Source: Burkholderiaceae bacterium (GTDB lineage: Bacteria > Pseudomonadota > Gammaproteobacteria > Burkholderiales > Burkholderiaceae_D). Taken from it: a stretch of 64,000 bases of DNA. The notes beneath the pieces are model-generated. The model saw only the letters and a list, made by a program, of their open reading frames with translations. It ran no database searches and was not told where the DNA came from. This document shows, piece by piece, positions 6,412 through 17,673 of the stretch (positions are counted from its first letter, which is position 1; each line of letters starts with the position of its first letter). Made by a program: the position numbers and the translations under genes. The DNA is taken from positions 33,013-97,012 of the forward strand of contig DASVLJ010000042.1 of assembly GCA_036384915.1 (NCBI GenBank). The letters run 5' to 3'.

Positions 6412-8648
6412 ACTACACCGTCGCCGTGCGCGCGTTGTGCGAATTTACCGCCAAGTGCGGCGACCTCGATCTGCGCTTCACACCGGCGCCGAGCGCGCAG
6501 GAAGGCATTGCCGGCCATGCGACCGTACGCGGCCGGCGCGGCGCCGGATACAAGGCGGAAGTCAGCCTTGAAGGCGAATACGGCCCTTTGCGCGTACGCG
6601 GCCGCGCCGATGGTTTCGATGCCAAGAAAAACCGGGTCGAGGAAATCAAGACCTATCGCGGCAGCCTGGAGCGCATGCCGGACAATCACCGGCAATTGCA
6701 TTGGGCGCAAGCGAAAATCTACGGCTGGCTGCTGTGCCAAAAATTGGACCTCGATGCGATCGAGGTGGCGCTGGTCTACTTCGATATCGGCGAGCAAACC
6801 GAGACGGTGCTGTGCGAGCGCCACGAAGCGGCGACACTGAGGCAATTCTTCGAGCAAAGCTGCGAACGCTTCCTGGCCTGGGCCGAGCAGGAAATGGCGC
6901 ACCGTGCGGAACTCGATACTGTATTGCGCGAACTCGGGTTTCCCTACCCGGAATTTCGCACCGGCCAGCGCGAATTGGCCGAGGCCGCATACAAGGCGGC
7001 AGCGGTAGGCTGTGCTGTGATGATGCAAGCACCCACCGGCATAGGCAAGACCGTGGGCACGCTGTTTCCCTTGCTCAAGGCGAAAGAGGCGAAGCAGCTC
7101 GACAAGATTTTTTATCTCGCGGCCAAGACTTCGGGCCGGCAACTGGCACTCGATGCGCTCGACCTGATCGCAGGCGGCAAACCGTTGCGCGTATTGGAGC
7201 TCGTGGCGCGCGACAAGGCTTGCGAACATCCGGATAAAGCTTGCCATGGCGATTCCTGTCCGCTCGCGCGCGGCTTTTACGACCGTTTGCCGGCGGCGCG
7301 CGGCGCCATGCTCCAGGAGCCACGCTTCGACAAGGCGGCGTTGCGCCGCGTCGCGCTCGAACACGAAGTGTGCCCCTACTACCTGGGCCAGGAAATGGCA
7401 CGCTGGGCCGATGTAACGGTGGGCGACTACAACTATTACTTCGACATCAGCGCCATGCTGCACGGCATGACCATGCTGCACCAGTGGCGCGTGGCCGTGC
7501 TGGTCGACGAGGCGCACAACCTGGTGGAGCGCGGACGCAAGATGTATTCCGCCGAATTGCATCAAGCTGACCTCAAGGCCTTGCGCGCCGCGGCGCCCGC
7601 CGAAGTGAAAGGTGCGCTCGACCGCGTGAACCGGCAATGGAATGCGCTGACCAAGGAGCAGGAAGCCGAATACCAGGTTTACCCGGCCATTCCAGATAAG
7701 TTTCTCGAAGCGCTGGAGCAGGCAAACGGCGCGATGGCGGATTATCTCGTAGCGCATGCCGACGGCATAAATGCCGAGCTGCAGCGCTTCTATTTCGACA
7801 TCGGCTTGTTTGTACGTCTGGCCGAAGCTTTTGGCGAGCACACTTTGTTCGATGTGGAAAAACCGAACAAGCATGACATCGTGCTCAACCTGCGCAACAT
7901 CGTGCCTGCGCCCTTCCTCAAGCCGCGTTTTGCTGCCGCGCATGCCAGCGTGCTGTTTTCCGCCACGCTTGCACCCTGGCAATTCTATGGCGACATGCTC
8001 GGCTTGCCGGAGGAGACGCCCTGGATAGACGTGGCTTCTCCGTTTCGCGCCGAGCAACTGGCGGTGTCGATAGAAAGGCGCATTTCGACACGCTGGCGCG
8101 ACCGCGATGCGTCGCTGGCGCCGATCGCCGATTTGATCGCGCGCCACTACAAGGGGGTACCGGGAAATTATCTCGCTTTCTTCAGCAGCTTCGATTACCT
8201 GCAGCGCGCGGCCGATCTGCTCGAATCCATCCATCCCGATTTGCCCATATGGCGCCAATCGCGCGATATGGATGAAGCGGCCAAGCAGGCCTTCCTCGCT
8301 CGCTTCACGTCGGGCGGGCGCGGCATCGGCTTCGCTGTCTTGGGAGGCGCTTTCGGCGAAGGCATAGATTTGCCCGGCGACCGCTTGATCGGCGCCTTCA
8401 TCGCCACGCTCGGCTTGCCGCAATTCAATGCGGTCAATGAGCAAATCAGGGAACGCATGCAAGAGATGTTCGGCGCCGGCTATGAATATGCCTACCTTTA
8501 TCCGGGCTTGCAAAAGGTGGTGCAGGCGGCCGGCCGCGTCATCCGCACCACGAGCGACCGCGGTACCGTGACCTTGATCGACGACCGCTTTGCCGCGCCG
8601 CAGGTGCGCGGGCTGTTGCCGGGTTGGTGGGACGTTGGAGTCGTCTGA
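6408..8648 (+). CDS. Cas4/RecB-like PD-(D/E)XK nuclease fused to an XPD/DinG-family (Rad3-like) Fe-S DNA helicase
   Basis: GTG start overlaps the VRR-NUC stop (GTGA, 4-nt overlap). N-terminus has GRADGFD...VEEIK (D..E.K nuclease motif). Walker A APTGIGKT and DEAH box VLVDEAHNL are present. Fe-S motif CEHPDKACHGDSC is typical of the XPD family. Confidence 0.8.
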   Translation: MNYTVAVRALCEFTAKCGDLDLRFTPAPSAQEGIAGHATVRGRRGAGYKAEVSLEGEYGPLRVRGRADGFDAKKNRVEEIKTYRGSLERMPDNHRQLHWAQAKIYGWLLCQKLDLDAIEVALVYFDIGEQTETVLCERHEAATLRQFFEQSCERFLAWAEQEMAHRAELDTVLRELGFPYPEFRTGQRELAEAAYKAAAVGCAVMMQAPTGIGKTVGTLFPLLKAKEAKQLDKIFYLAAKTSGRQLALDALDLIAGGKPLRVLELVARDKACEHPDKACHGDSCPLARGFYDRLPAARGAMLQEPRFDKAALRRVALEHEVCPYYLGQEMARWADVTVGDYNYYFDISAMLHGMTMLHQWRVAVLVDEAHNLVERGRKMYSAELHQADLKALRAAAPAEVKGALDRVNRQWNALTKEQEAEYQVYPAIPDKFLEALEQANGAMADYLVAHADGINAELQRFYFDIGLFVRLAEAFGEHTLFDVEKPNKHDIVLNLRNIVPAPFLKPRFAAAHASVLFSATLAPWQFYGDMLGLPEETPWIDVASPFRAEQLAVSIERRISTRWRDRDASLAPIADLIARHYKGVPGNYLAFFSSFDYLQRAADLLESIHPDLPIWRQSRDMDEAAKQAFLARFTSGGRGIGFAVLGGAFGEGIDLPGDRLIGAFIATLGLPQFNAVNEQIRERMQEMFGAGYEYAYLYPGLQKVVQAAGRVIRTTSDRGTVTLIDDRFAAPQVRGLLPGWWDVGVV
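8467..8630. repeat. Direct repeat copy 1 (164 bp, within the helicase 3' end), about 98% identical to 11349..11512
   Basis: Compared by eye. tgttcggcgccggctatgaata...ttgccgggttggtgg recurs 2882 bp downstream with about 3 mismatches. Confidence 0.9.
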
Positions 8649-8817
8649 CTTGGAACCGTCACTCGAAAGCAACGAAAATGCCTCGACCAAGATTTTCTGT
8701 CAGAATTGCGTCCGACCGAAGCGGCGAAGCTCTCCAAAAGTTATCGATTATTCTTGGCATTCGAGATCGAATGTGCGACTCTTAACGGAGCATGCTGCGT
8801 GTTTGTATTCGTTCAAA

Positions 8818-9228
8818 ATGGATCGTTTGACAGTCGAAAGACGAAGTTGGCTAATGGGGCGGGTTGGTTCGAAGAATACAACCCCGGAGCTTGCAGTGCG
8901 CCGGTTGGTTTTTTCGATGGGCTATCGCTATCGATTGCATGATATTCGACTTCCCGGCAAGCCGGATTTGGTTTTTTCGGGGCGACGGAAAGTCATTTTT
9001 GTCAACGGATGTTTTTGGCATGGTCATAAACGATGTCGCTATGCTCGATTACCCAAAACAAATGTGGATTTTTGGCAAGAGAAGATCGAACGCAATCGCG
9101 CAAGAGATCGAAAAAACAAAGCGCAACTGACTCGATTGGGATGGGGCGTACTTGTTGTTTGGCAGTGCGAATTGCGGAACATCGAAAAATTATCGGCAAA
9201 ATTATATGACTTCTTTGAACGAGACTAA
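8818..9228 (+). CDS. vsr: very short patch repair endonuclease
   Basis: LPGKPDLVFSGRRKVIFVNGCFWHGHKRC aligns with the E. coli Vsr core (FTHGCFWHHH). 136 aa. Overlaps the methyltransferase start by 23 nt. Confidence 0.85.
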   Translation: MDRLTVERRSWLMGRVGSKNTTPELAVRRLVFSMGYRYRLHDIRLPGKPDLVFSGRRKVIFVNGCFWHGHKRCRYARLPKTNVDFWQEKIERNRARDRKNKAQLTRLGWGVLVVWQCELRNIEKLSAKLYDFFERD

Positions 9229-10495
9229 TAAGCGTCCAATTGGGATCGATCTGTTCTCCGGGGCAGGTGGTATGTCGTTGGGGTTCGAGCAAGCTGGTTT
9301 CGATATTGCAGCCGCCGTGGAGATAGATCCCATACATTGCGCGACTCACGAGTACAACTTTCCGTATTCGAAGACCATATGTGCAAGTGTGGTGAACCTG
9401 ACCGGCGCGGAAATAAGACGTCGCGCAAATTTAAAGGACGCGGACGTCGACGTTGTATTTGGAGGGGCGCCATGCCAAGGTTTTTCCATGATAGGAAAAC
9501 GCGCGCTGGACGATCCAAGAAACCAATTGGTATTCCACTATGTTCGATTAGTGAGCGAACTTAAACCGAAATACTGCGTTTTCGAAAATGTTAAGGGCCT
9601 AACTTTGGGGCAGCATGCGGCTTTTCTTCAGGAATTGATTTCCGCGCTCGAGTCGGCTGGATATGACGTGCTTATGCCTTACCGAGTCTTGAATGCGGCG
9701 AATTTTGGGGTTCCTCAGGATCGCAAAAGACTTTTCCTGGTAGGCGCGCGCCGTGGTATGGAGTCTCCTCAATATCCCAAGGAGATCGCAGAGAGGGTTA
9801 CGGTTTGGGATGCGATTGGCGATTTGCCCGATGCAGACGAATTTGTCGAATTGAACACTGTGGACGAAGTGAGAGCTTCTTGGTTAACGCAATCCAAATA
9901 TGCGAGAAGGCTAAGGCTTCTAGATGTCGACTCGACAAATTTCGGCTATAAGCGCGACTTCGATAAAGATCTCTTATCTTCTAGCTTGCGAACCGAGCAT
10001 ACTGCTTTATCGAAAAAACGTTTCTTGGAGACAGAACACGGCAAGACGGAACCAATTAGCCGCTTCCGTAAATTGCCTCCAGATGGCCTGTGCAACACTT
10101 TGCGTGCCGGCACCGATAGTGCACGAGGTGCGTTCACCTCTCCACGCCCCATTCATCCGTTTCTTCCTCGCGTCATAACCGTGCGGGAGGCTGCGAGATT
10201 GCATTCCTATCCCGATTGGTTCAGATTTCATTCGACCAAATGGCATGGTTTCCGGCAAATCGGAAATAGCGTCCCGCCGCTTCTGGCGCGAGCAATCGCT
10301 CGCGAGATTGCTCGGGCAATGGGCATCCGACCGACTAAGCCAAAAATGCGACTGCAAACCGGGGATTCGGAACTGTTGACTTTCGATATGGGCGATGCCG
10401 CAACGTACTTCAACGTTCCTCGCAACACAATTGCCCAGCGTAGTCGAAAAAGCGACCCAAACCAACCCAACTTGTGGGAAGAAAGCTATGCCTAA
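9206..10495 (+). CDS. dcm: DNA (cytosine-5)-methyltransferase
   Basis: Motif I DLFSGAGGMSLGF, motif IV GGAPCQGFS, motif VI FENVKGL, motif X QIGNSVPP. ATG at 9206 (MTSLNETNK) chosen over the upstream ORF start. Confidence 0.9.
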   Translation: MTSLNETNKRPIGIDLFSGAGGMSLGFEQAGFDIAAAVEIDPIHCATHEYNFPYSKTICASVVNLTGAEIRRRANLKDADVDVVFGGAPCQGFSMIGKRALDDPRNQLVFHYVRLVSELKPKYCVFENVKGLTLGQHAAFLQELISALESAGYDVLMPYRVLNAANFGVPQDRKRLFLVGARRGMESPQYPKEIAERVTVWDAIGDLPDADEFVELNTVDEVRASWLTQSKYARRLRLLDVDSTNFGYKRDFDKDLLSSSLRTEHTALSKKRFLETEHGKTEPISRFRKLPPDGLCNTLRAGTDSARGAFTSPRPIHPFLPRVITVREAARLHSYPDWFRFHSTKWHGFRQIGNSVPPLLARAIAREIARAMGIRPTKPKMRLQTGDSELLTFDMGDAATYFNVPRNTIAQRSRKSDPNQPNLWEESYA

Positions 10496-11300
10496 GTCGG
10501 GGGAGAAGAAAAAACCAAACCGTTATCAAGCGATTATCGAACGGGTATTTTTGAATCGCTTCACTCCCAAGACTACGGAATTCGAATTTACCAGAGACGA
10601 ATTTGTATCGACCGCCAAGACGCTGGAGGTGGAGCTGCCGAAGAATATAGGCGATGTTATCTATTCTTTTCGCTACCGAAATGAACTTCCTGACGCAATC
10701 CGGAATACCGCAAAAAGCGGCTTCGAATGGATAATCGAGGGAGCGGGGCATGCACAATATCGCTTTCGACAAGTGAAATTCAATCGAATTCTCCCTCGGG
10801 CAGAGCTAATAACAATTAAGGTGCCAGACGCCACGCCGGAAATAATCGCGGCCTACTCGCTGAGTGACGAGCAAGCATTGCTGGCGAAGGTACGGTATTC
10901 GCGTTTGGTAGATGTCTTTCTGGGGGTAACAGCTTTTTCGTTGCAGAATCACCTGCGAACGACGGTAAAGAGTGTGGGGCAGATCGAAATAGACGAAATT
11001 TATGTCGCAATTGATCGTCATGGTCGTCAGTACGTGATTCCGGTACAGGCGAAGGGTGGCAACGACAAGCATGGTGTCGTACAGACGCAGCAAGATATTT
11101 TGTGTTGTGCCGAGAAATTTCCGAATTTGATTTGCAGAGCGGTTTCGGCGCAATTCATGAGCGCAAATAGAATTGCGATGTTCGAGCTTGCAGTTCAAAA
11201 GGATGAAGTGAAGGTGGTCGACGAAAAGCACTATCAACTTGTTGCAAGTACCGATATCACCCCGGAGGATTTATCGTTGTATTCACGGCGTAGCGATTAG
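10488..11300 (+). CDS. putative type II restriction endonuclease (family not recognised)
   Basis: Overlaps the methyltransferase stop by 8 nt (operon). Carries a PD-(D/E)XK-like IEIDEIYVAID...VQAKG signature. The position next to an m5C methyltransferase and vsr suggests the cognate REase. Confidence 0.5.
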   Translation: MPKSGEKKKPNRYQAIIERVFLNRFTPKTTEFEFTRDEFVSTAKTLEVELPKNIGDVIYSFRYRNELPDAIRNTAKSGFEWIIEGAGHAQYRFRQVKFNRILPRAELITIKVPDATPEIIAAYSLSDEQALLAKVRYSRLVDVFLGVTAFSLQNHLRTTVKSVGQIEIDEIYVAIDRHGRQYVIPVQAKGGNDKHGVVQTQQDILCCAEKFPNLICRAVSAQFMSANRIAMFELAVQKDEVKVVDEKHYQLVASTDITPEDLSLYSRRSD

Positions 11301-11348: not shown

Positions 11349-11524
11349 TGTTCGGCGCCGGCTATGAATACGCCTACCTTTATCCGGGCTTGCAAAAGGT
11401 GGTGCAGGCGGCCGGCCGCGTAATCCGCACTACGAGCGACCGCGGTACCGTGACCTTGATCGACGACCGCTTTGCCGCGCCGCAGGTGCGCGGGCTGTTG
11501 CCGGGTTGGTGGCATGTACAATAG
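11349..11524 (+). pseudogene. Duplicated 3' end remnant of the helicase gene (direct repeat copy 2; alternative ending ...PGWWHVQ*)
   Basis: Encodes FGAGYEYAYLYPGLQKVVQAAGRVIRTTSDRGTVTLIDDRFAAPQVRGLLPGWW, identical to the helicase C-terminus, but has no upstream gene body. Confidence 0.7.
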
Positions 11525-11609
11525 CGACGGCACCCGAAGCCGGGAAAACTTGCGAGAAATGCGCAGGCGCGGCTACACTTCAGGCTCGTATTTCTCTCAA
11601 ATTATCCCA

Positions 11610-11804
11610 ATGAAGAAGATATTCCATATCGCCGGCGCGCTCGGCGTGGCCTTGATCGTGCAATCGGCGCGTGCCCAATCGGTCGATAAACCCGTCTTCA
11701 AGGAGGGCGACAACTGGGAATACCAATACTTCGACACGTGGTCGAACCGCATGACATCGACCTTCTCCAAGCAAGTCATCGGGGTTTCAGGCGATTTCGG
11801 GTAG
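11610..11804 (+). pseudogene. N-terminal fragment of a gene for a secreted protein, interrupted by the IS1-family element
   Basis: MKKIFHIAGALGVALIVQSARA signal peptide. The frame terminates at a TAG inside the left IS terminal repeat. Removing 11800..15536 restores the frame into the 15536..16027 ORF (…SGDF-VRISYDLRE…). Confidence 0.8.
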
Positions 11805-11864
11805 TGTCTCAGTTTGATTTGTAACAGCGTTTTCATGCTTGAGCGGTCATGCTATCCTTGATGC

Positions 11865-12095
11865 ATGGCTACCAGACCCAAAAAGCTCGACTTGAACCAG
11901 CTCGCTAAGCGCATCGTAGATGAAGCCGCTGGCGAAGAACCTATCACACCAGCGCCACCCGAAAAAAACAAAGCCGCCCAAGAACTGGGGCGGCTAGGTG
12001 GCATCAAGGGCGGTGCGGCTCGCGCTAAGAGCCTTACACCAGAACAGCGTAGCGATATCGCCAAGAAGGCGGCAGCTAAGCGATGGGCAAAATAG
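11865..12095 (+). CDS. small basic hypothetical protein (76 aa), IS passenger
   Basis: MATRPKKLDLNQLAKRIVDEAAGEE...GRLGGIKGGAARAKSLTPEQRSDIAKKAAAKRWAK. Lys/Ala-rich, likely nucleic-acid binding. Family not identified. Confidence 0.5.
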   Translation: MATRPKKLDLNQLAKRIVDEAAGEEPITPAPPEKNKAAQELGRLGGIKGGAARAKSLTPEQRSDIAKKAAAKRWAK

Positions 12096-12125
12096 CTTCC
12101 CAAAAAGCCGCGCTCCAATTCTTAT

Positions 12126-12956
12126 CTAACTTTGCAAAGTCACCGTGATTTCGACAGCGCTATCGTCTTCGTCATACACTTGACTCACATTCATTGCAAA
12201 GGTTTGAAACCAGCGCAAGCGCTTCGTTGCAGGCCATTGCTCCCCTTGCTTGGGAATCTTCTGCAAGAGCGCTAAAAGCAGCGGATCAAGGTCTAGTCCA
12301 GTAGTACCGCCACCACCGTTTCCGCCATTTCCTCCTGTATTGCCATCGTTCGCATTCGCCTGCTTTGCCGGATCGGCATCCTTAACCAATACTGCGGGTA
12401 GAACTAGCTTATTGGGGCCTTGCTCTCGAAATCCGGTTTGTTGTGCGGAGCTTTCGAATACTTGTCGTGCACGTCCTTTCTGCTTTTCCGACACGCCGAG
12501 AGCGGCAATTTCTCGCTCTAATGCAGCGCTTGGCGGTGTGACATGACCTTTGTATTTATCATACAGCGCTCGAAACAGCGGAACACGAAGGAACGCCTCG
12601 GCCTTGGCTTGCCTAGCCTGGGATTGATCTACAACGCGTCGTCCCAAATCTGTCAAGTGGTAGCTCTCGGCGTCATTACTTTCAATCAGCCCGAACAAGC
12701 GGGCTGCCGCTAATTGAGACCTATAACTACTGCTTTTTGGGCTTTGGTCCATCCAAGCGGCAAGCTGGGAAGTAGCAGAACAATCTCCATGCCCAACATT
12801 CCCATGAATCGCCAGTGCCACAGCGACCGCAGCCTCGTAATCCGAGTAAGGGAATCCAATTGTTGAACGCTGCCGAGTCCTGACATCATCGGCAGCCCCT
12901 TCATCTTCGCCGTCAATTGCTTCGACATTTTCGCTCACGTGGATATCTCCGGTCAT
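12126..12956 (-). CDS. hypothetical protein (276 aa) with internal Gly-rich linker, IS passenger
   Basis: Long ORF in the low-GC segment. Gly-rich linker NTGGNGGNGGGGTTG separates a roughly 200-aa N-domain from a roughly 55-aa C-domain. No recognisable family. Confidence 0.55.
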   Translation of the reverse strand: MTGDIHVSENVEAIDGEDEGAADDVRTRQRSTIGFPYSDYEAAVAVALAIHGNVGHGDCSATSQLAAWMDQSPKSSSYRSQLAAARLFGLIESNDAESYHLTDLGRRVVDQSQARQAKAEAFLRVPLFRALYDKYKGHVTPPSAALEREIAALGVSEKQKGRARQVFESSAQQTGFREQGPNKLVLPAVLVKDADPAKQANANDGNTGGNGGNGGGGTTGLDLDPLLLALLQKIPKQGEQWPATKRLRWFQTFAMNVSQVYDEDDSAVEITVTLQS

Positions 12957-13289
12957 GTTAATGAACTGATGAACTGGAGTTTAATGCCGCCATTCGGTTA
13001 AGTCAATGCGAAAATTGGATAAATAACGAAATTCCTGTTTACTATCCGTTTTAGGCATTATAGAATGCACGGAACGATAGGAGAATGCCATGAGAAGATG
13101 CTGCGGCCTTAACTGAAATCGCCCGGTTAAGGCCAAAAGAAAGGCCCCAACAGCTAGAGACCTTTGGAGAGGGCAAGCAGTTGGGGCCGTGGCGATACAT
13201 TTTGCGAAGCGTTGCGGGCACCCGATTCCCCTAACAACCTAGAACACCCTGCGCCAACAGGGTGCGCTCTAGGAGAAAGGAGGTGCCAC

Positions 13290-13424
13290 ATGGATAAAAA
13301 ATCTTATCCTCCTGTGCCTGAAGGCTATGTGCTGAAGTTCGTGTCACACATTACGGTCAACGGCAAGGTTCTGTATGCGAAAGCATACGGCAAACGCGCT
13401 TGGCCGATCTTGGTTAAAACCTAA
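13290..13424 (+). CDS. small hypothetical protein (44 aa) upstream of the transposase
   Basis: Strong RBS (AGGAGG) 7 nt before ATG. MDKKSYPPVPEGYVLKFVSHITVNGKVLYAKAYGKRAWPILVKT. Could be an InsA-like small regulator; unverified. Confidence 0.35.
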   Translation: MDKKSYPPVPEGYVLKFVSHITVNGKVLYAKAYGKRAWPILVKT

Positions 13425-13532
13425 GAGTCGCCCGCACGCCTTCGCTTTTTACATTTTAAGCTAAATAAAGCCTCAAAACAACTTGCACATTCTTGCTCGC
13501 TCAAGCATAATTCATTTTAAGGAGGCAGGAAA

Positions 13533-14360
13533 ATGAATAAGCTGAGCTTACAAAAACGCACACAGATCATCGGCCTGCTGGTTGAGGGCAACTCAATGCG
13601 CGCCGCCTCCCGCCTCGCTGATTGCAGCATTAACACCGTTACCAAGCTGCTCGTAGATGTTGGCTACGCCTGCCAGTTCTACCAAGCCCAGGTCATCAAG
13701 AACGTTCAAGCCAAGCGCGTTCAATGCGACGAGATTTGGTCTTTCTGCTACTCGAAGGAAAAGAACGTCGCGCCGGAAGACAAGGGCATATTGGGCCACG
13801 GCGATGTGTACACATGGACTGCCATCGATGCTGATACAAAACTCGCCATTTCGTGGCTCGTCGGTCGCCGCGATCTTGAGTATGCTGAGGTGTTTATCGA
13901 AGACTTGGCATCGCGCCTTGCTGGCCGCATCCAGCTAACCACGGACGGCCACGGCCCGTATATTCCAGCCGTGGATAGAATCTTTGGCGGGGCAATCGAC
14001 TACGCCATGTTGGTGAAGCACTACGAAGGCCAATCCAACACGGATCAACGTCGCTACAGCCCCGCCCAATTCGTCTGCGCAGAGAAGCGCCGCATCAGCG
14101 GCCTGCCGTTTGCCAAGCATGTTTCAACTAGCTTTGTCGAACGCCAAAACTTGACCATGCGGATGGGCATGCGCCGCTTCACGCGGCTGACAAACGGCTT
14201 CAGCAAGAAGATCGAAAACCTTGAGCATGCCGTGGCGCTGCACTTCATGCATTACAACTTTTGCCGCATCCATAAGACGCTGAAGACTACGCCCGCACTC
14301 GAAGCGGGGATTGCTGACAAGCTTTGGAGCATTGAGGATATTGCGAAGCTACTAGACTGA
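13533..14360 (+). CDS. IS1-family (ISMhu11 group) single-ORF DDE transposase
   Basis: N-terminal HTH MNKLSLQKRTQIIGLLVEGNSMRAASRLADCSINTVTKLLVDVG. RVQCDEIWSFCYSKEKNV and the C-terminal ...HKTLKTTPALEAGIADKLWSIEDI are characteristic of this transposase group. Confidence 0.8.
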   Translation: MNKLSLQKRTQIIGLLVEGNSMRAASRLADCSINTVTKLLVDVGYACQFYQAQVIKNVQAKRVQCDEIWSFCYSKEKNVAPEDKGILGHGDVYTWTAIDADTKLAISWLVGRRDLEYAEVFIEDLASRLAGRIQLTTDGHGPYIPAVDRIFGGAIDYAMLVKHYEGQSNTDQRRYSPAQFVCAEKRRISGLPFAKHVSTSFVERQNLTMRMGMRRFTRLTNGFSKKIENLEHAVALHFMHYNFCRIHKTLKTTPALEAGIADKLWSIEDIAKLLD

Positions 14361-14648
14361 AATGGCAACAAATCTAATTTCTAATAGATTGATTTCGTTT
14401 TCCGTTACCGTAAACAGGAACGTAAGCGTAAACGGAAATCCATAATTTACATGCTGCGAGCTTGTCCGCAAAAGATATACTTGCGGGTCCGTTCCTGGAA
14501 TAGGCGTAGCGTCCTCTAAAGGATTCCGCGCCAACCTCCAAGACCAACCGCATTCCCACCAATCCTGAAAACGAGGATACGCTGCGGCAAGGCGATCCAA
14601 TTCTGCCGAAACACTAACTGATTCTGAAATTGTTTTGGCAAAAGTCAT
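14352..14648 (-). CDS. putative toxin (98 aa, unrecognised family) encoded immediately after the Panacea-domain antitoxin
   Basis: Its ATG directly abuts the Panacea gene stop (TAGATG), a typical TA operon arrangement. C-terminal YLLRTSSQHVNYGFPFTLTFLFTVTENEINLLEIRF has a RelE/ParE-like beta-rich flavour but was not confidently assigned. Confidence 0.5.
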   Translation of the reverse strand: MTFAKTISESVSVSAELDRLAAAYPRFQDWWECGWSWRLARNPLEDATPIPGTDPQVYLLRTSSQHVNYGFPFTLTFLFTVTENEINLLEIRFVAISV

Positions 14649-15182
14649 CTATGCCGCCAATTTTTCTTTAGCCCATGCGAAATCTGTTTCATCCACCTCT
14701 CCAACATCCGATGCAAAGACGGTGGCCAACGGGATTTCTTCTCCCATATTGGCAATTCTCCAGATTATACCGTGCGTTTCCTCGCTAACAGTTTTGGCGG
14801 TATGGTTCAGGCAAACATGCTCAAATGCAGAATCAACTAGCTTAATTTCATCTACCGAAAAAATAGATGTATCGCATTCGGCAATAGCAATATATTCGGT
14901 TTTGACGAATCCAAAATGATCCACGCGCCCGCGCGCAATCAAGCCCTCGGCAACTAATTGATCGACCGCTGACACGATATGCCTCGGCACTGGCCCATGC
15001 TGACGCTTCACATAAGATTCGCCGGTAATCGAATGCCCGGTGACCATATAGCGAATTGAATCAGAATACCAAAGTACCTTATTAAGTTTTACCGCCCCAA
15101 GAACGGAAGGGTCCGATGCCTTTTCGCAAATATAATGCACCAGCGCCTTAAATTTTTCCCAGTTCATAGTTTCCATTTTCAA
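14649..15182 (-). CDS. Panacea-domain (DUF4065, SocA-like) antitoxin
   Basis: 177 aa. KLNKVLWYSDSIRYMVTGHSITGESYVKRQHGPVP matches the Panacea domain core. AT-rich promoter region lies upstream inside the IS. Confidence 0.7.
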   Translation of the reverse strand: MKMETMNWEKFKALVHYICEKASDPSVLGAVKLNKVLWYSDSIRYMVTGHSITGESYVKRQHGPVPRHIVSAVDQLVAEGLIARGRVDHFGFVKTEYIAIAECDTSIFSVDEIKLVDSAFEHVCLNHTAKTVSEETHGIIWRIANMGEEIPLATVFASDVGEVDETDFAWAKEKLAA

Positions 15183-15535
15183 GCTCCTGTATTCAATGTG
15201 GAGCGAAATCTCAAAATTTCCAGCAATTTAAACGCCAACGCATAACTTTGCTCGCGCGGAACGCTCGCAGTCAGGGTAGCATATTTTATGCAAGTCAAGC
15301 AATTTTTACGTGCGAATGCAATAAAAGTATGTTGCGCGGAAATTTCATAAATAACAACCTGTCATTGTTGTCAGGTACTACGCAAAATTTTCGCTCGCCG
15401 TTAGGCATCATATTAGTTAAATAATTTCAAAATCATGAGTAACAATTTATGAATTTTGTTTTTGCTTTTTAACAACGCCGAAAATCAAGGAATATCAACG
15501 CCTGTTACATTTGATCTGAGACACTGCCCGATTTC

Positions 15536-16027
15536 GTGCGCATCTCCTATGATTTGCGCGAGATTTCCAAGACCGGCGATATCGGCCGGCCGCAGCAATC
15601 GGAAAGCACGGTGCGCGCGGACCTGAATGGCACCACGATGTCGGGCAGTGAAAAGTTCGACCGGCTCAACTACAAGTGGCCGCTCGAAACGGGCAAGAAG
15701 TGGACTTCCCAATTCAAGTCCGATCTGCCCCCGGCCGCTGTCAATGCCCCGTCCCAGGTCATGACGACCACGATGGATTCCGAGGTCAAGGGCTGGGAAA
15801 AGGTCAAGACGCCGGCCGGCGAATTCAATGCCCTGAAAATCGTCGTCAAGGGCAGCTGGAGCGTGAGCAATTCCGCCGCCAGCACCGGGTCGGGCACCTT
15901 CAATGCCGCGCACTGGTACAGCCCCGATGTGAAAAGCGACGTGCAATACACCTATGAAGCCTTCAGTGCCGACGGCACACCGGGGAACAAGACCAAGCAG
16001 GTGTTGAGCAGTTACAACTTCAGGTAG
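15536..16027 (+). pseudogene. C-terminal fragment of the IS-interrupted secreted-protein gene
   Basis: Starts at the G of the right target-site duplication copy. Frame continuity with 11610..11799 after precise excision of the IS plus one TSD copy. Confidence 0.8.
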
Positions 16028-16790
16028 GCCGGCGTTCGGAAGCCGGCAGCAAGACGGCCGCGGCGACCGCGGCAAGCAAGTGCTTGAGTGTGTGGCCGCT
16101 GATCACATGCAGCAGATCCTGCAGTTGGTGGTCGTACAGCTCGGCAAGCTTGGCTGCGCCATACAGGACGATGGCGGCGGCGAGCGCCAGGCGTCTGGCC
16201 CGCGGCGCGTGTGCCGTGGCTTGCCATAGCGGAATCAGCACCACAGGTAGTATCTGGAATAGCAAATACCAGCGCAAGTCGCCGACGCCGCATAGGTCGG
16301 TGATGCGCCACCAAAGGACGCCGGCGACGGCCCCGAACGCCAGCAGCAGCGTATCGCGCATCTCGGCTGCCCGGCGCGGGCGCGGATGCCACTCGGCGCG
16401 TGTCGCCGCCAGCAAGCCGGCGCAGGTCAGTGCGGTCGGCATGCGGTCCCAGACCAGCCGCGCATTGTCGGGCGCGAGGTGATAGTAGCCGGAGCCGACG
16501 GTGGTTAGCAGCAGGCCGGCCAGGAACAAGCGATAGCCGTAGCACCCCGGCTGCCATGCCTTGCCGCAAAACAGCGATCGCAATTTCCACAGTCCCCAGA
16601 AGGCGACGAGAGCGAAGCTGCCATTCGACAGCACGTCGCCGGCATGCGGTATGCCGAGAACATTGCCCTGGTCGGCAAATTGATGATAATCGGCGAATTG
16701 GGCGACCGGCCCATGTATCCACAAAACCGCAATCAATATCAGCGTCAGGGCGGCGGGAAGTTGGCGCGGCATGATATTCCTCCTTTTCAT
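16020..16790 (-). CDS. ceramidase-family integral membrane protein (alkaline ceramidase-like)
   Basis: Multi-TM protein with FADYHQFADQGNVLGIPHAGDVLSNGSF, reminiscent of bacterial ceramidase/PF05875 proteins. Start uncertain (16790 or 16772). Confidence 0.5.
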   Translation of the reverse strand: MKRRNIMPRQLPAALTLILIAVLWIHGPVAQFADYHQFADQGNVLGIPHAGDVLSNGSFALVAFWGLWKLRSLFCGKAWQPGCYGYRLFLAGLLLTTVGSGYYHLAPDNARLVWDRMPTALTCAGLLAATRAEWHPRPRRAAEMRDTLLLAFGAVAGVLWWRITDLCGVGDLRWYLLFQILPVVLIPLWQATAHAPRARRLALAAAIVLYGAAKLAELYDHQLQDLLHVISGHTLKHLLAAVAAAVLLPASERRPT

Positions 16791-16917
16791 GCCGGCAGCA
16801 TGCGCCGCAAAAGCGCCGAGGCAAATGGCCGTGCAAACGGTAGCAAAGCCTGCCGCTCCGCGTAGCAGGTGATGCTACCTTGAGTGTTAGACTGCGGGTT
16901 TACCTTCACGTCCGGCC

Positions 16918-17673
16918 ATGTCCCTGCCGCCTTTGCACAAGACCTTGGAAGAATGCGCATTTCGCGCCCTGCCCGCCCCGCGGACGCAGGTGTTTGACGG
17001 TTGGGTTGTGCGTCTGGCCGGCGGCGGGCCCAAGCGGGCCAATTCGGTCAATGTGGTCGATACCTCGACGCTGCCTTTGGCGCATAAGATCGGGCATTGC
17101 GAACAGCTGTTTTTGGAACAGGGCCTGGCGCCGACGTTTCGCCTGACCTGGCATGAGGTCGACGCCGGGCTCGATGCATTGCTTGCCGCACGCGGCTATG
17201 TGCGCCAGGATGAAAGCATCGTCATGACGCTCGCGCTTGATGCAATCGATACCACCGATATGGCGAGCGCGGCATGTACGCTGCTTGCGGCGGACGAATG
17301 GCTACAATTGCTGCCGCGCATCGATCAGGGCACGCCGGAACGCAAGCGAAAACATGTCGAGTTGTTGCGCCGACTGGATTTGCCTGCACTCTATGGCGCT
17401 GTCGAAACAAGCGGTGAATACCATGCCATGGGGCTGGTCGTGATCGACGACGATTACGCCGGGTTGTTCGATATCGCAACCTTGCCCGGATTCCGGCGCC
17501 GGGGGTACGCACGTTCGTTGACCCGTGCGTTGCTGCACGGGGCCAAGCGCCAGGGAGCGAAATCGGCTTACTTGCAAGTCGTGGCGGGGAATAGTGAGGC
17601 CGTGACGCTGTACGCCTCACTCGGTTTTGCCGATTGTTACCGCTATTGGTATCGCGTGCGTGATACCGCTTAA
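16918..17673 (+). CDS. GNAT family N-acetyltransferase
   Basis: C-terminal LPGFRRRGYARSLTRALLHGAKRQGAKSAYLQVVAGNSEAVTLYASLGF is a GNAT acetyl-CoA binding fold motif. Confidence 0.7.
   Translation: MSLPPLHKTLEECAFRALPAPRTQVFDGWVVRLAGGGPKRANSVNVVDTSTLPLAHKIGHCEQLFLEQGLAPTFRLTWHEVDAGLDALLAARGYVRQDESIVMTLALDAIDTTDMASAACTLLAADEWLQLLPRIDQGTPERKRKHVELLRRLDLPALYGAVETSGEYHAMGLVVIDDDYAGLFDIATLPGFRRRGYARSLTRALLHGAKRQGAKSAYLQVVAGNSEAVTLYASLGFADCYRYWYRVRDTA

What the first reader, a model, noticed from the sequence alone, without database searches (positions are those of the whole stretch)
11792..15536. 3.7-kb IS1-family transporter IS with clear TIRs and 8-bp TSD splitting a secreted-protein gene
Roughly 30-bp imperfect terminal inverted repeats (GGTAGTGTCTCAG…TGTAACAG, 13/13 matches at the tips apart from one T/C) bound 11800..15528 and are flanked by the direct repeat CGATTTCG. 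Deleting the element plus one TSD copy fuses ORF 11610..11799 in frame to 15537..16027 (…VSGDF|VRISYDL…). That reconstructs a 226-aa signal-peptide protein, so the insertion is real and its target fully reconstructable. The element carries an ISMhu11-type single-ORF IS1 transposase plus five passenger ORFs, making it a cargo-bearing IS rather than a minimal one.
Basis: seen in the sequence. Interest (0 to 1): 0.75.

Follow-up and report, generated by a model that had tools for sequence, protein, structure and literature searches.

The report
Cargo-carrying IS1-like insertion sequence splitting a gene
A 3.7-kb jumping gene of the IS1 family has landed in a secreted-protein gene, bringing a toxin-antitoxin pair and an unknown DNA-binding protein; over 100 bounded relatives share its two-gene backbone, nearly all with different cargo.

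Summary
Element 11800-15528 (3729 bp, GC 0.49 against 0.60 for the window) has about 27-nt imperfect terminal inverted repeats with tips matching 12/13. It is flanked by an exact 8-bp duplication, CGATTTCG. Removing it rebuilds a 226-aa signal-peptide protein. A syntenic relative (L180) has the gene uninterrupted, and full-length homologues align without gaps across the junction.

The transposase is a distant single-ORF IS1-family enzyme. I could not check the ISMhu11 label.

"Five passenger ORFs" needs correcting. The 76-aa ORF next to the left end is a conserved backbone gene, found in 91 of 104 bounded relatives. The true cargo sits in two slots:
- Left slot (12096-13481): a 276-aa tandem winged-helix protein of unknown function, plus a doubtful 44-aa ORF.
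- Right slot (14363-15501): a Panacea-domain antitoxin translationally coupled to a 98-aa RelE/ParE-fold toxin.

The 104 relatives, from many phyla and from viral contigs, share the tips GGTAGTG..TCAGTTTGAA and all but one have 8-bp duplications. They are 1.3-4.4 kb long. Their cargo is hypervariable and includes defence-type genes such as BstA, RosmerTA-like antitoxins and P63C proteins.

Verdict: a real, well-bounded transporter IS and a new member of a known kind. The lineage-level architecture is the more interesting part.

The parts
11610..11799 (+). 5' part of the disrupted target gene (63 codons plus 1 nt; signal peptide MKKIFHIAGALGVALIVQSARA|QS)
   Evidence: Full-length homologues P0001 (226 aa, 68% identity) and P0003 (222 aa) align without gaps across the junction.
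11792..11799 (.). Left copy of the 8-bp target-site duplication CGATTTCG
11800..11827 (+). Left terminal inverted repeat (IRL), GGTAGTGTCTCAGTTTGATTTGTAACAG
   Evidence: The tip GGTAGTG(T/G)(C/G)TCAGTTTGAA is conserved in the 104 bounded relatives.
11865..12095 (+). Conserved 76-aa Lys/Ala-rich backbone protein with the motif ..LNQLAKxIVDxATGE..GRLGGxKGGxARAxxLTxEQRxxIAKKAAxxRW. It has no Shine-Dalgarno sequence and may be translated from a leaderless mRNA.
   Evidence: 93% identical in L009. A profile match was found in 91 of 104 bounded elements; in most it starts about 65 nt from the left end. The DNA block 11800-12095 is conserved with relatives and ends exactly at this ORF's stop codon. 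No Pfam, NCBIfam or PDB match.
12096..13481 (.). Left cargo slot (1386 bp), unrelated in sequence to the sister elements compared
   Evidence: blastn against L009, L010, L011, L012, L013 and L029 shows no homology here. The slot holds P63C, BstA or an RmrA-like gene in sister elements.
12126..12956 (-). 276-aa passenger protein: tandem winged-helix core, disordered Gly-rich linker, small helical C-terminal domain; function unknown
13085..13295 (+). Strongly structured non-coding stretch (three hairpins) ahead of the 44-aa ORF
   Evidence: RNA fold -88.5 kcal/mol, z = -4.4. No Rfam match.
13290..13424 (+). 44-aa ORF with a strong Shine-Dalgarno sequence; coding status uncertain
   Evidence: called by gene finders. 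Only weak hits elsewhere. Not found beside homologues of the 276-aa gene.
13484..13511 (+). Predicted transposase promoter (TGCACA-16-CATAAT), inside the conserved DNA block that starts at 13482
   Evidence: The same TTGCA(T/C)..TCAAG(C/T)ATAAT layout is seen in L009, L010 and L012; L122 shows only the TCAAGTATAAT part.
13533..14360 (+). Single-ORF DDE transposase, 275 aa, a distant IS1-family member
   Evidence: NF033558 E 1.2e-12 (48 bits, cut-off 100). PF13610 28.5 bits; PF03400 19 bits. BLASTP against IS1A InsB gives E 1e-4 over the ERxNL...FSK region. More than 8000 homologues, some named IS1 family transposase.
14363..15501 (.). Right cargo slot, unique to this element
   Evidence: A right slot longer than 300 bp occurs in 62 of 104 relatives.
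14352..14648 (-). 98-aa RelE/ParE-fold protein, the putative toxin. Its ATG directly follows the antitoxin's TAG stop.
   Evidence: 55 representative clusters of homologues. 2 of 47 members give a faint ParE_toxin hit. AF2 pLDDT 95.6. The top 8 Foldseek PDB hits are Cami1, HigB2, ParE2 and YoeB, with TM-score (query-normalised) 0.50-0.64. The TAGATG junction is visible.
14649..15182 (-). Panacea (SocA-like) domain protein, 175-177 aa, the putative antitoxin
   Evidence: PF13274 41.5 bits (cut-off 25.7). phrog_1281. Plasmid homologues are annotated as DUF4065, Panacea or SocA antitoxin.
15502..15528 (-). Right terminal inverted repeat (IRR); reverse complement GGCAGTGTCTCAGATCAAATGTAACAG. It departs from the lineage consensus at position 3 and positions 14-17.
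15529..15536 (.). Right copy of the 8-bp target-site duplication CGATTTCG
15537..16027 (+). 3' part of the disrupted target gene (163 codons; faint DUF3108-like match)

Best explanation
This is one copy of a cargo-carrying insertion sequence (a transporter IS) of a distant, single-ORF branch of the IS1 family.

Mechanism, inferred from what is established for IS1 and other DDE transposases: the 275-aa transposase binds the two GG(T/C)AGTGTCTCAG ends, frees their 3'-OH groups, and joins them to target phosphates staggered by 8 bp. Repair of that stagger produced the CGATTTCG duplication. Everything between the ends travels with the element.

The element has a fixed backbone in two blocks:
- the left end plus a 76-aa basic protein;
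- the transposase promoter and gene, plus the right end.

Two cargo slots lie beside the transposase block. In this copy the left slot holds a 276-aa tandem winged-helix protein of unknown function. The right slot holds a two-gene operon: a Panacea-domain antitoxin followed by a RelE/ParE-fold toxin. That operon most likely works as an addiction or phage-defence module that stabilises the element.

The insertion split, and so inactivated, a 226-aa secreted protein of a Burkholderiaceae bacterium.

Shown here: boundaries, duplication, the empty site in a relative, IS1-type homology, backbone conservation, cargo variability, and the folds of the two right-slot proteins. Inferred: the chemistry of transposition, the role of the 76-aa protein (probably a DNA-binding accessory or regulator), toxicity and neutralisation, and whether this copy is still mobile.
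For: - Boundaries, duplication and in-frame reconstruction.
- Foreign composition: GC 0.49 against 0.60.
- Uninterrupted homologues and a syntenic empty site: P0001 and P0003; L180 has the same three-gene order and is colinear with window 11349-11785, then with 15529-17660.
- IS1 affinity.
- Same tips and 8-bp duplications in bounded relatives from genomes, plasmids and viral contigs. Lengths run from 1323 to 4362 bp, median 3115.
- Backbone versus slots: DNA homology to sister elements covers only 11800-12095 and 13482-14362. The small ORF is present in 91 of 104 elements, and the minimal element L122 (1365 bp) holds only the small ORF and the transposase.
- Cargo turnover: pairs with 85-92% identical transposase blocks share nothing in the slots. 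183 ORF clusters were found among 58 elements.
- Cargo content in relatives: BstA at E 7.7e-117, RmrA in 8 elements, P63C in 9, and others.
- Toxin-antitoxin pair.
Against: - The transposase scores below the curated IS1 thresholds: 48 bits against 100 for NCBIfam, and 19 against 24.1 for Pfam. A Pfam IS6-type DDE model just passes its own cut-off.
- Only one insertion site was found for this exact element. All 15 contigs carrying the identical transposase show the same locus, so there is no direct evidence of recent mobility.
- The right end differs from the lineage consensus at about five positions.
- No intact allele closer than 68% protein identity was found.
- The functions of the 76-aa and 276-aa proteins are unknown.
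- The toxin assignment rests on a predicted fold with modest Foldseek E-values (about 0.03).
Confidence: 0.9

Rival explanations
1. The element belongs to the IS6 (IS26-like) family rather than IS1. That would imply cointegrate-only transposition.
For: Pfam DDE_Tnp_IS240 scores 28.5 bits, above its cut-off of 27. NCBIfam IS6 gives E 1.5e-6. The duplication is 8 bp. The right-end tip GGCAGTG resembles, from memory, IS26's GGCACTG.
Against: NCBIfam IS1 scores higher (48 against 28 bits) and covers the HTH through to the second Asp. The C-terminal ERxNLxxR...FSK motif aligns with IS1A InsB. NCBI and JGI name close homologues IS1 family. The IS6 score is far below that family's cut-off of 125.
Confidence: 0.07
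2. The copy is an immobile fossil. It inserted once, became fixed in the population, and can no longer transpose.
For: All 15 contigs with the identical transposase carry the same insertion. There is no second copy in the window. The right end departs from the GGTAGTGTCTCAGTTTGAA consensus at position 3 and positions 14-17.
Against: The transposase ORF is full length and keeps every column that is invariant across 25 homologues. The duplication is still perfect. The backbone promoter is conserved. The toxin-antitoxin ORFs are intact.
Confidence: 0.3
3. The genes in the left slot (here the 276-aa winged-helix protein; elsewhere HTH-M78 peptidase fusions, Cro-like, Bro-N and P63C proteins) are regulators of the element itself. 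They would act like ImmR/ImmA-type stress switches controlling transposition, rather than as cargo that benefits the host or provides defence.
For: Many left-slot proteins are DNA-binding: HTH_3 in 11, Peptidase_M78 in 9, Cro-like in 2, Bro-N in 1. The 276-aa protein is a tandem winged helix. The slot lies between the two backbone promoters.
Against: Left-slot genes are unrelated to one another (183 clusters). The 276-aa family also occurs with no IS1-like element nearby. One left-slot gene is a near-full-length BstA, a known abortive-infection protein. The minimal element L122 has no such gene.
Confidence: 0.15

Closest known systems
Classical IS1 (IS1A and relatives of Enterobacteria)
   Same: DDE transposase with the IS1-type catalytic-region motif. 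Ends of the form GGnnnTG: IS1A has GGTGATG, this element GGTAGTG. The 8-9-bp target duplication of IS1 is from established knowledge. A small basic ORF sits next to the left end.
   Different: IS1 is 768 bp. It makes its transposase by a -1 frameshift between insA and insB, and carries no cargo. Here the transposase is one 275-aa ORF with its own N-terminal HTH. The upstream 76-aa ORF shows no similarity to InsA in any search, and no zinc-finger or HTH motif was seen in it. The element is 3729 bp with four extra ORFs.
Transporter IS (tIS) as defined by ISfinder, for example ISDsp3 of the IS6 family
   Same: An IS bounded by its own inverted repeats that carries passenger genes unrelated to transposition. 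The concept is stated in PMC7986276 and PMC9330008.
   Different: In most families tIS are sporadic: a single member in IS6, according to PMC7986276. In this lineage nearly every bounded member carries cargo, in two fixed slots.
ISMhu11 subgroup of the IS1 family (ISfinder)
   Same: From memory only: an IS1 subgroup listed with lengths up to about 4.6 kb, which implies passenger genes.
   Different: I could not compare. ISfinder was not available, and no held paper mentions ISMhu11.
Tn3-family transposons with toxin-antitoxin passengers, and Tn7-like transposons with defence cargo
   Same: Transposons that carry toxin-antitoxin or anti-phage genes as cargo (PMC9330008; PMC8649781, listed).
   Different: Those are much larger elements with multi-gene transposition modules (resolvase, TnsABCD). 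Here the vehicle is a 1.3-kb two-gene IS backbone.
PanAT toxin-antitoxin systems (Panacea-domain antitoxins)
   Same: A Panacea/SocA domain protein encoded in an operon with a small toxin-fold protein.
   Different: Toxicity and neutralisation are untested. The 98-aa partner matches no curated toxin family above threshold.

Membership tests
IS1 family | Transposase is homologous to IS1 InsB, and IS1 is the best-matching IS family | tested here: met
   NF033558 E 1.2e-12, the top IS model. BLASTP against IS1A InsB gives E 1e-4 over ERxNL..FSK. Homologues are named IS1 family by NCBI and JGI.
IS1 family | Transposase reaches the curated family score thresholds | tested here: not met
   NF033558 48.2 bits against a cut-off of 100. 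PF03400 19 bits against 24.1. So this is a distant member at best.
IS1 family | Terminal inverted repeats beginning GGnnnTG | tested here: met
   GGTAGTG and GGCAGTG; IS1A has GGTGATG. The consensus form is recalled from ISfinder.
IS1 family | Target-site duplication of 8-9 bp | tested here: met
   8 bp here and in 103 of the 104 bounded relatives.
IS1 family (classical type) | insA and insB ORFs fused by a programmed -1 frameshift | tested here: not met
   A single uninterrupted 275-aa ORF with an N-terminal HTH. The upstream 76-aa ORF is separated from it by a 1.4-kb slot.
ISMhu11 subgroup | Clusters with ISMhu11 in ISfinder | not testable with these tools
   No ISfinder access. No paper in the library mentions ISMhu11.
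Transporter IS (tIS) | Passenger genes unrelated to transposition lie inside the element's own inverted repeats | tested here: met
   The 276-aa gene also occurs outside any such IS. The Panacea/RelE-fold pair lies inside the ends.
IS6 family | Transposase reaches the IS6 family model threshold | tested here: not met
   NF033587 28.1 bits against a cut-off of 125. Only the generic Pfam DDE_Tnp_IS240 domain just passes.
PanAT type II toxin-antitoxin | Antitoxin with a Panacea (PF13274) domain | tested here: met
   41.5 bits against a cut-off of 25.7.
PanAT type II toxin-antitoxin | Adjacent co-transcribed toxin gene | tested here: inconclusive
   TAG/ATG coupling. The predicted RelE/ParE fold is the best PDB match, TM-score 0.50-0.64, probability at least 0.97, but E about 0.03. 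Only 2 of 47 homologues touch Pfam ParE_toxin.
PanAT type II toxin-antitoxin | Toxin arrests growth and the antitoxin neutralises it | not testable with these tools
   Needs expression experiments.

The most novel reading that the evidence does not exclude
This element may represent a previously undescribed sub-family of IS1-like 'cargo shuttle' transposons.

- The backbone is 1.3 kb with two genes: a conserved 76-100-aa basic accessory protein unrelated to InsA, plus a single-ORF transposase.
- There are two precise cargo slots.
- The sub-family is spread over many bacterial phyla and viral contigs.
- The slots turn over faster than the backbone. They are loaded with toxin-antitoxin and anti-phage genes, including BstA, RosmerTA-like antitoxins and P63C, ClpP/SDH-protease, NYN, Fic, RelA_SpoT and dCTP-deaminase domains.

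On this reading the unknown 276-aa tandem winged-helix (BrxA-like fold) protein, which occupies the slot that holds BstA or RmrA in sister elements, would be a candidate new defence or sensor gene. The lineage would also be a natural series for studying how insertion sequences acquire passengers.
Probability: 0.35. Interest if true: 0.7.

Novelty: new member of a known kind. Interest (0 to 1): 0.45.

Why it matters
For this genome it is a clean, fully reconstructable gene-inactivation event. It sits next to a second foreign insertion, a restriction-modification island.

More broadly, the element points to a very widespread IS1-like lineage:
- at least 595 genome-contig matches (one genome per species) and 178 viral-contig matches;
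- more than 8000 protein homologues;
- cargo-free members are the exception.

A tiny two-gene backbone ferries an ever-changing set of toxin-antitoxin and defence-type genes at two fixed positions. If ISfinder has not already described this, it is a compact and experimentally tractable model for two questions: how insertion sequences capture passengers, and how small defence genes spread.

Cultured carriers exist: Afipia sp. Root123D2, Glycocaulis albus, Acidiphilium multivorum JZ-6 and Mesorhizobium loti 582.

The lineage also nominates uncharacterised slot genes, such as the 276-aa protein here, as candidates for functional screens.

Tried and rejected
- **Other copies of the exact element.** A look-up of the identical transposase returned 15 contigs, all with the same insertion site. 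This gave no independent copy.
- **A near-identical intact allele of the target gene.** The protein search gave 68% identity at best. The metagenome scan found only 25-28% relatives. P0001's DNA was not retrievable.
- **Literature.** 'ISMhu11' gave no hit. The FEMS review PMC7190074 is not held. Searches on IS1, cargo and defence found no description of this lineage.
- **Function of the small ORF and the 276-aa protein.** Pfam, NCBIfam and PADLOC gave no hits for either. PHROGs gave only a short motif match for the small ORF (phrog_2384) and nothing for the 276-aa protein. PDB profile searches were empty. tblastn of the small ORF against plasmids and phages found only the same kind of element. 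tblastn of the 276-aa and 98-aa proteins against plasmids found nothing.
- **Rfam on the element.** No match.
- **Scripts that failed.** A fuzzy-regex end search timed out. A first end pattern that required the sub-terminal TGTAAC motif was too narrow. It was replaced by a search combining duplication and inverted repeat.
- **InsAB' fusion.** My attempt to build it from an E. coli IS1A copy failed because that copy is frameshifted. I used the InsB frame only.
- **RES/Xre pair next to the A. multivorum element.** I first took it for cargo. It lies outside the element's right end.
- **An operator-like 11-nt inverted repeat linking the two backbone blocks.** It is present in the window and L009, but there is no family-wide excess of inverted over direct matches, so it remains unexplained.

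Full report
**Observation.**
Reading 11500-16200 shows the left end GGTAGTGTCTCAGTTTGATTTGTAACAG starting at 11800. The right end finishes at 15528, and its reverse complement reads GGCAGTGTCTCAGATCAAATGTAACAG. The tips match 12/13. The arms match over about 27 nt with one indel. The 13-nt tip occurs exactly only at these two places in the window. CGATTTCG directly flanks both ends, at 11792-11799 and 15529-15536. The element is 3729 bp with GC 0.49, against 0.60 for the window. Removing it together with one repeat copy joins 11610-11799 to 15537-16027. The result is a 226-codon frame with a typical Sec signal peptide.

**Is the target real?**
A protein search with the rebuilt sequence found full-length homologues of the same size: P0001 (226 aa, 68% identity), P0003 (222 aa, 60%), P0005 and P0006. 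It also found the 163-aa fragment itself, from a Burkholderiaceae MAG. The full-length homologues align without gaps across the junction: ISGDFIRVSYD in P0001 against VSGDF|VRISYD here.

P0003's contig (L180) has the same gene order: the gene, an overlapping antisense membrane-type ORF, then a GNAT acetyltransferase. At DNA level L180 is colinear with window 7995-8640, then 11349-11785, then directly 15529-17660. It is therefore an empty-site relative. No closer intact allele was found. All 15 contigs that encode the identical transposase carry the same insertion.

**Family of the transposase.**
The 275-aa ORF 13533-14360 gives these scores:
- NCBIfam IS1: E 1.2e-12, 48 bits, below the cut-off of 100.
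- NCBIfam IS6: E 1.5e-6.
- Pfam DDE_Tnp_IS240: 28.5 bits, cut-off 27.
- Pfam DDE_Tnp_IS1: 19 bits, cut-off 24.1.

Against the InsB frame of an E. coli IS1A copy, BLASTP aligns the catalytic Glu region: ERQNLTMRMGMRRFTRLTNGFSK with [23 protein letters not shown], at E 1e-4. IS1A's end GGTGATG and this element's GGTAGTG both fit the GGnnnTG form. There are more than 8000 homologues. Those that carry names are called IS1 family transposase by NCBI and JGI. I conclude it is a distant, single-ORF IS1-family transposase. The ISMhu11 label could not be tested.

**Other copies of the kind.**
I fetched loci for the closest homologues, 80 genome loci (at least 595 matches across many phyla), 80 viral contigs (178 matches) and two plasmids. 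A script required an exact 8-bp direct repeat, at least 12-13 of 16 matching inverted-repeat positions, and a GG start. It delimited 104 elements.

The tips are GGTAGTG(T/G)(C/G)TCAGTTTGAA. The duplication is 8 bp in all but one (L011), at many different sites (101 unique sites were scored). Lengths run from 1323 to 4362 bp, with a median of 3115.

**Architecture.**
Clustering the ORFs of 58 elements gave only two conserved genes: the transposase, and a 75-100-aa Lys/Ala-rich protein. A profile of the small protein finds it on the transposase strand in 91 of 104 elements. In most it starts about 65 nt from the left end. The window's 76-aa ORF (11865-12095) is 93% identical to that of L009.

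blastn of the window element against six sister elements shows homology only over two blocks. The first is 11800-12095, ending at the small ORF's stop codon. The second is 13482-14362, running from the transposase promoter to its stop codon. This defines a left slot (12096-13481) and a right slot (14363-15501).

Further points:
- The minimal element L122 (1365 bp) holds only the two backbone genes.
- Pairs whose transposase blocks are 85-92% identical share nothing in the slots. These include two copies in one Terriglobia MAG.
- The small protein has no Pfam, NCBIfam, PADLOC or PDB match. Its C-terminal motif recurs at the N-terminus of P63C proteins.
- Its role as a DNA-binding accessory or regulator is inference only.

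**Cargo of this copy, left slot.**
The 276-aa ORF (12126-12956, minus strand) belongs to a family of more than 485 proteins. All are annotated hypothetical and none has a Pfam domain. Members also occur with no IS1-like ends nearby. Examples are Paracidovorax avenae Acav_1639, a copy beside an IS1595-type transposase, and a copy beside ParE/PaaA2. It is therefore a true passenger.

The rest of the slot holds a highly structured stretch (z = -4.4) with no Rfam match. It also holds a 44-aa ORF with a strong ribosome-binding site but no support as a gene.

**Cargo of this copy, right slot.**
ORF 14649-15182 (minus strand) has a Panacea/SocA antitoxin domain, scoring 41.5 bits. Its TAG stop is immediately followed by the ATG of the 98-aa ORF 14352-14648.

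The 98-aa protein has 55 representative homologue clusters. Two of 47 members give a faint ParE_toxin signal. Its model is confident (pLDDT 95.6, beta-alpha-alpha-beta topology). Its eight best PDB matches are all RelE/ParE-superfamily toxins or domains: Cami1, HigB2, ParE2 and YoeB, with TM-score 0.50-0.64. This is most simply a Panacea-type toxin-antitoxin pair. Toxicity is untested.

**Cargo across the lineage.**
Of 120 slot ORFs of at least 100 aa, Pfam finds:
- HTH_3 in 11;
- P63C in 9;
- Peptidase_M78 in 9;
- SDH/ClpP proteases in 6 and 3;
- NYN in 2;
- Panacea in 2;
- single AbiEii-type AAA, Fic, RelA_SpoT and dCTP-deaminase domains.

PADLOC finds RmrA in 8, RmrT in 3, PD-Lambda-2_B in 4, and one each of BstA (E 7.7e-117) and PDC-S33. 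In the nearest relatives the left slot holds P63C (L009, L010), BstA (L011) or an RmrA-like HTH-M78 fusion (L029). I did not test enrichment against a background.

**Comparison and novelty.**
Transporter IS are a recognised category (PMC7986276, PMC9330008). From memory, ISfinder lists IS1-family members of up to about 4.6 kb. The element is therefore a new member of a known kind.

I could not find three lineage-level features described in the held literature:
- a second backbone gene unrelated to InsA;
- two fixed slots;
- near-universal, fast-turning cargo rich in toxin-antitoxin and defence-type genes.

ISfinder itself could not be consulted, so I give the 'undescribed sub-family' reading a probability of 0.35.

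**Caveats.**
- There is no evidence that this copy is still mobile. Only a single site was found, and the right end is divergent.
- Family thresholds are not reached.
- The cargo functions are predictions.

Noticed in passing
window 8467-8635 and 11349-11517 (cassette 8650-11300): A 169-nt direct repeat (97% identical), corresponding to the last ~55 codons of a DinG/XPD-like helicase gene, brackets a low-GC 2.7-kb cassette. The cassette encodes Vsr, a Dcm-type C5 methylase and a 270-301-aa ORF that may be a restriction enzyme. This is a restriction-modification island integrated at the helicase 3' end, leaving the helicase ORF intact. It ends about 280 bp before the IS. Relative L180 lacks it.
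   Followed up: partly
window 13085-13295: Three strong hairpins in the left cargo slot (RNA fold z = -4.4, no shuffle folds as well). They lie just upstream of a 44-aa ORF with a strong Shine-Dalgarno sequence. There is no Rfam match, and the stretch is absent beside homologues of the 276-aa gene elsewhere.
   Followed up: partly
window 11835-11845 and 13498-13508: A perfect 11-nt inverted repeat, ATGCTTGAGCG / CGCTCAAGCAT. One copy lies 35 nt inside the left end; the other lies inside the predicted transposase promoter. The same pair occurs in L009, and a related AATGCTTGAGGGG sits before the transposase ATG in L011 and L012. It may be an operator, but there is no family-wide excess.
   Followed up: partly
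window 11851-11867: The conserved 76-aa ORF has no ribosome-binding site. A -10-like hexamer (TATCCT here, TATGCT in L009, TATACT in L010) ends 6-8 nt before the ATG. This suggests a leaderless mRNA transcribed from a promoter beside the left end.
   Followed up: no
101 unique insertion sites of related elements (loci L009-L177): A weak palindromic target preference: C-A-A at -10 to -8, C/G at duplication position 1, G/C at position 8, and T-T-G at +8 to +10. For example, C is 0.46 at -10 and G is 0.50 at +10.
   Followed up: partly
L072 5668-8788 and L074 6542-10063 (same Terriglobia MAG, SMAG_U15150): Two sister elements in one genome share only the left end, the transposase block and the right end, at 87-88% nucleotide identity. 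Their slots are unrelated at nucleotide level, so the backbone is shared while the cargo differs within one genome.
   Followed up: partly
L095 5001-7171: A homologue of the 276-aa cargo gene lies next to an IS1595-family transposase (Zn_ribbon_IS1595 plus DDE_Tnp_IS1595). The same passenger may therefore ride a second IS family. The boundaries were not examined.
   Followed up: no
L092 2267-4900 (Acidiphilium multivorum plasmid NZ_CP041717): An isolate copy of the lineage (2634 bp, duplication AAGCCGAG). Its right end overlaps the last 18 nt of an annotated RES-toxin gene belonging to a RES/Xre pair that lies outside the element.
   Followed up: partly
L011 3798-7901: The BstA-carrying sister element has clear inverted repeats but no target duplication. 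It sits among primase, helicase and many small ORFs, so the region looks phage-like. This could reflect rearrangement or recombination between two copies.
   Followed up: no
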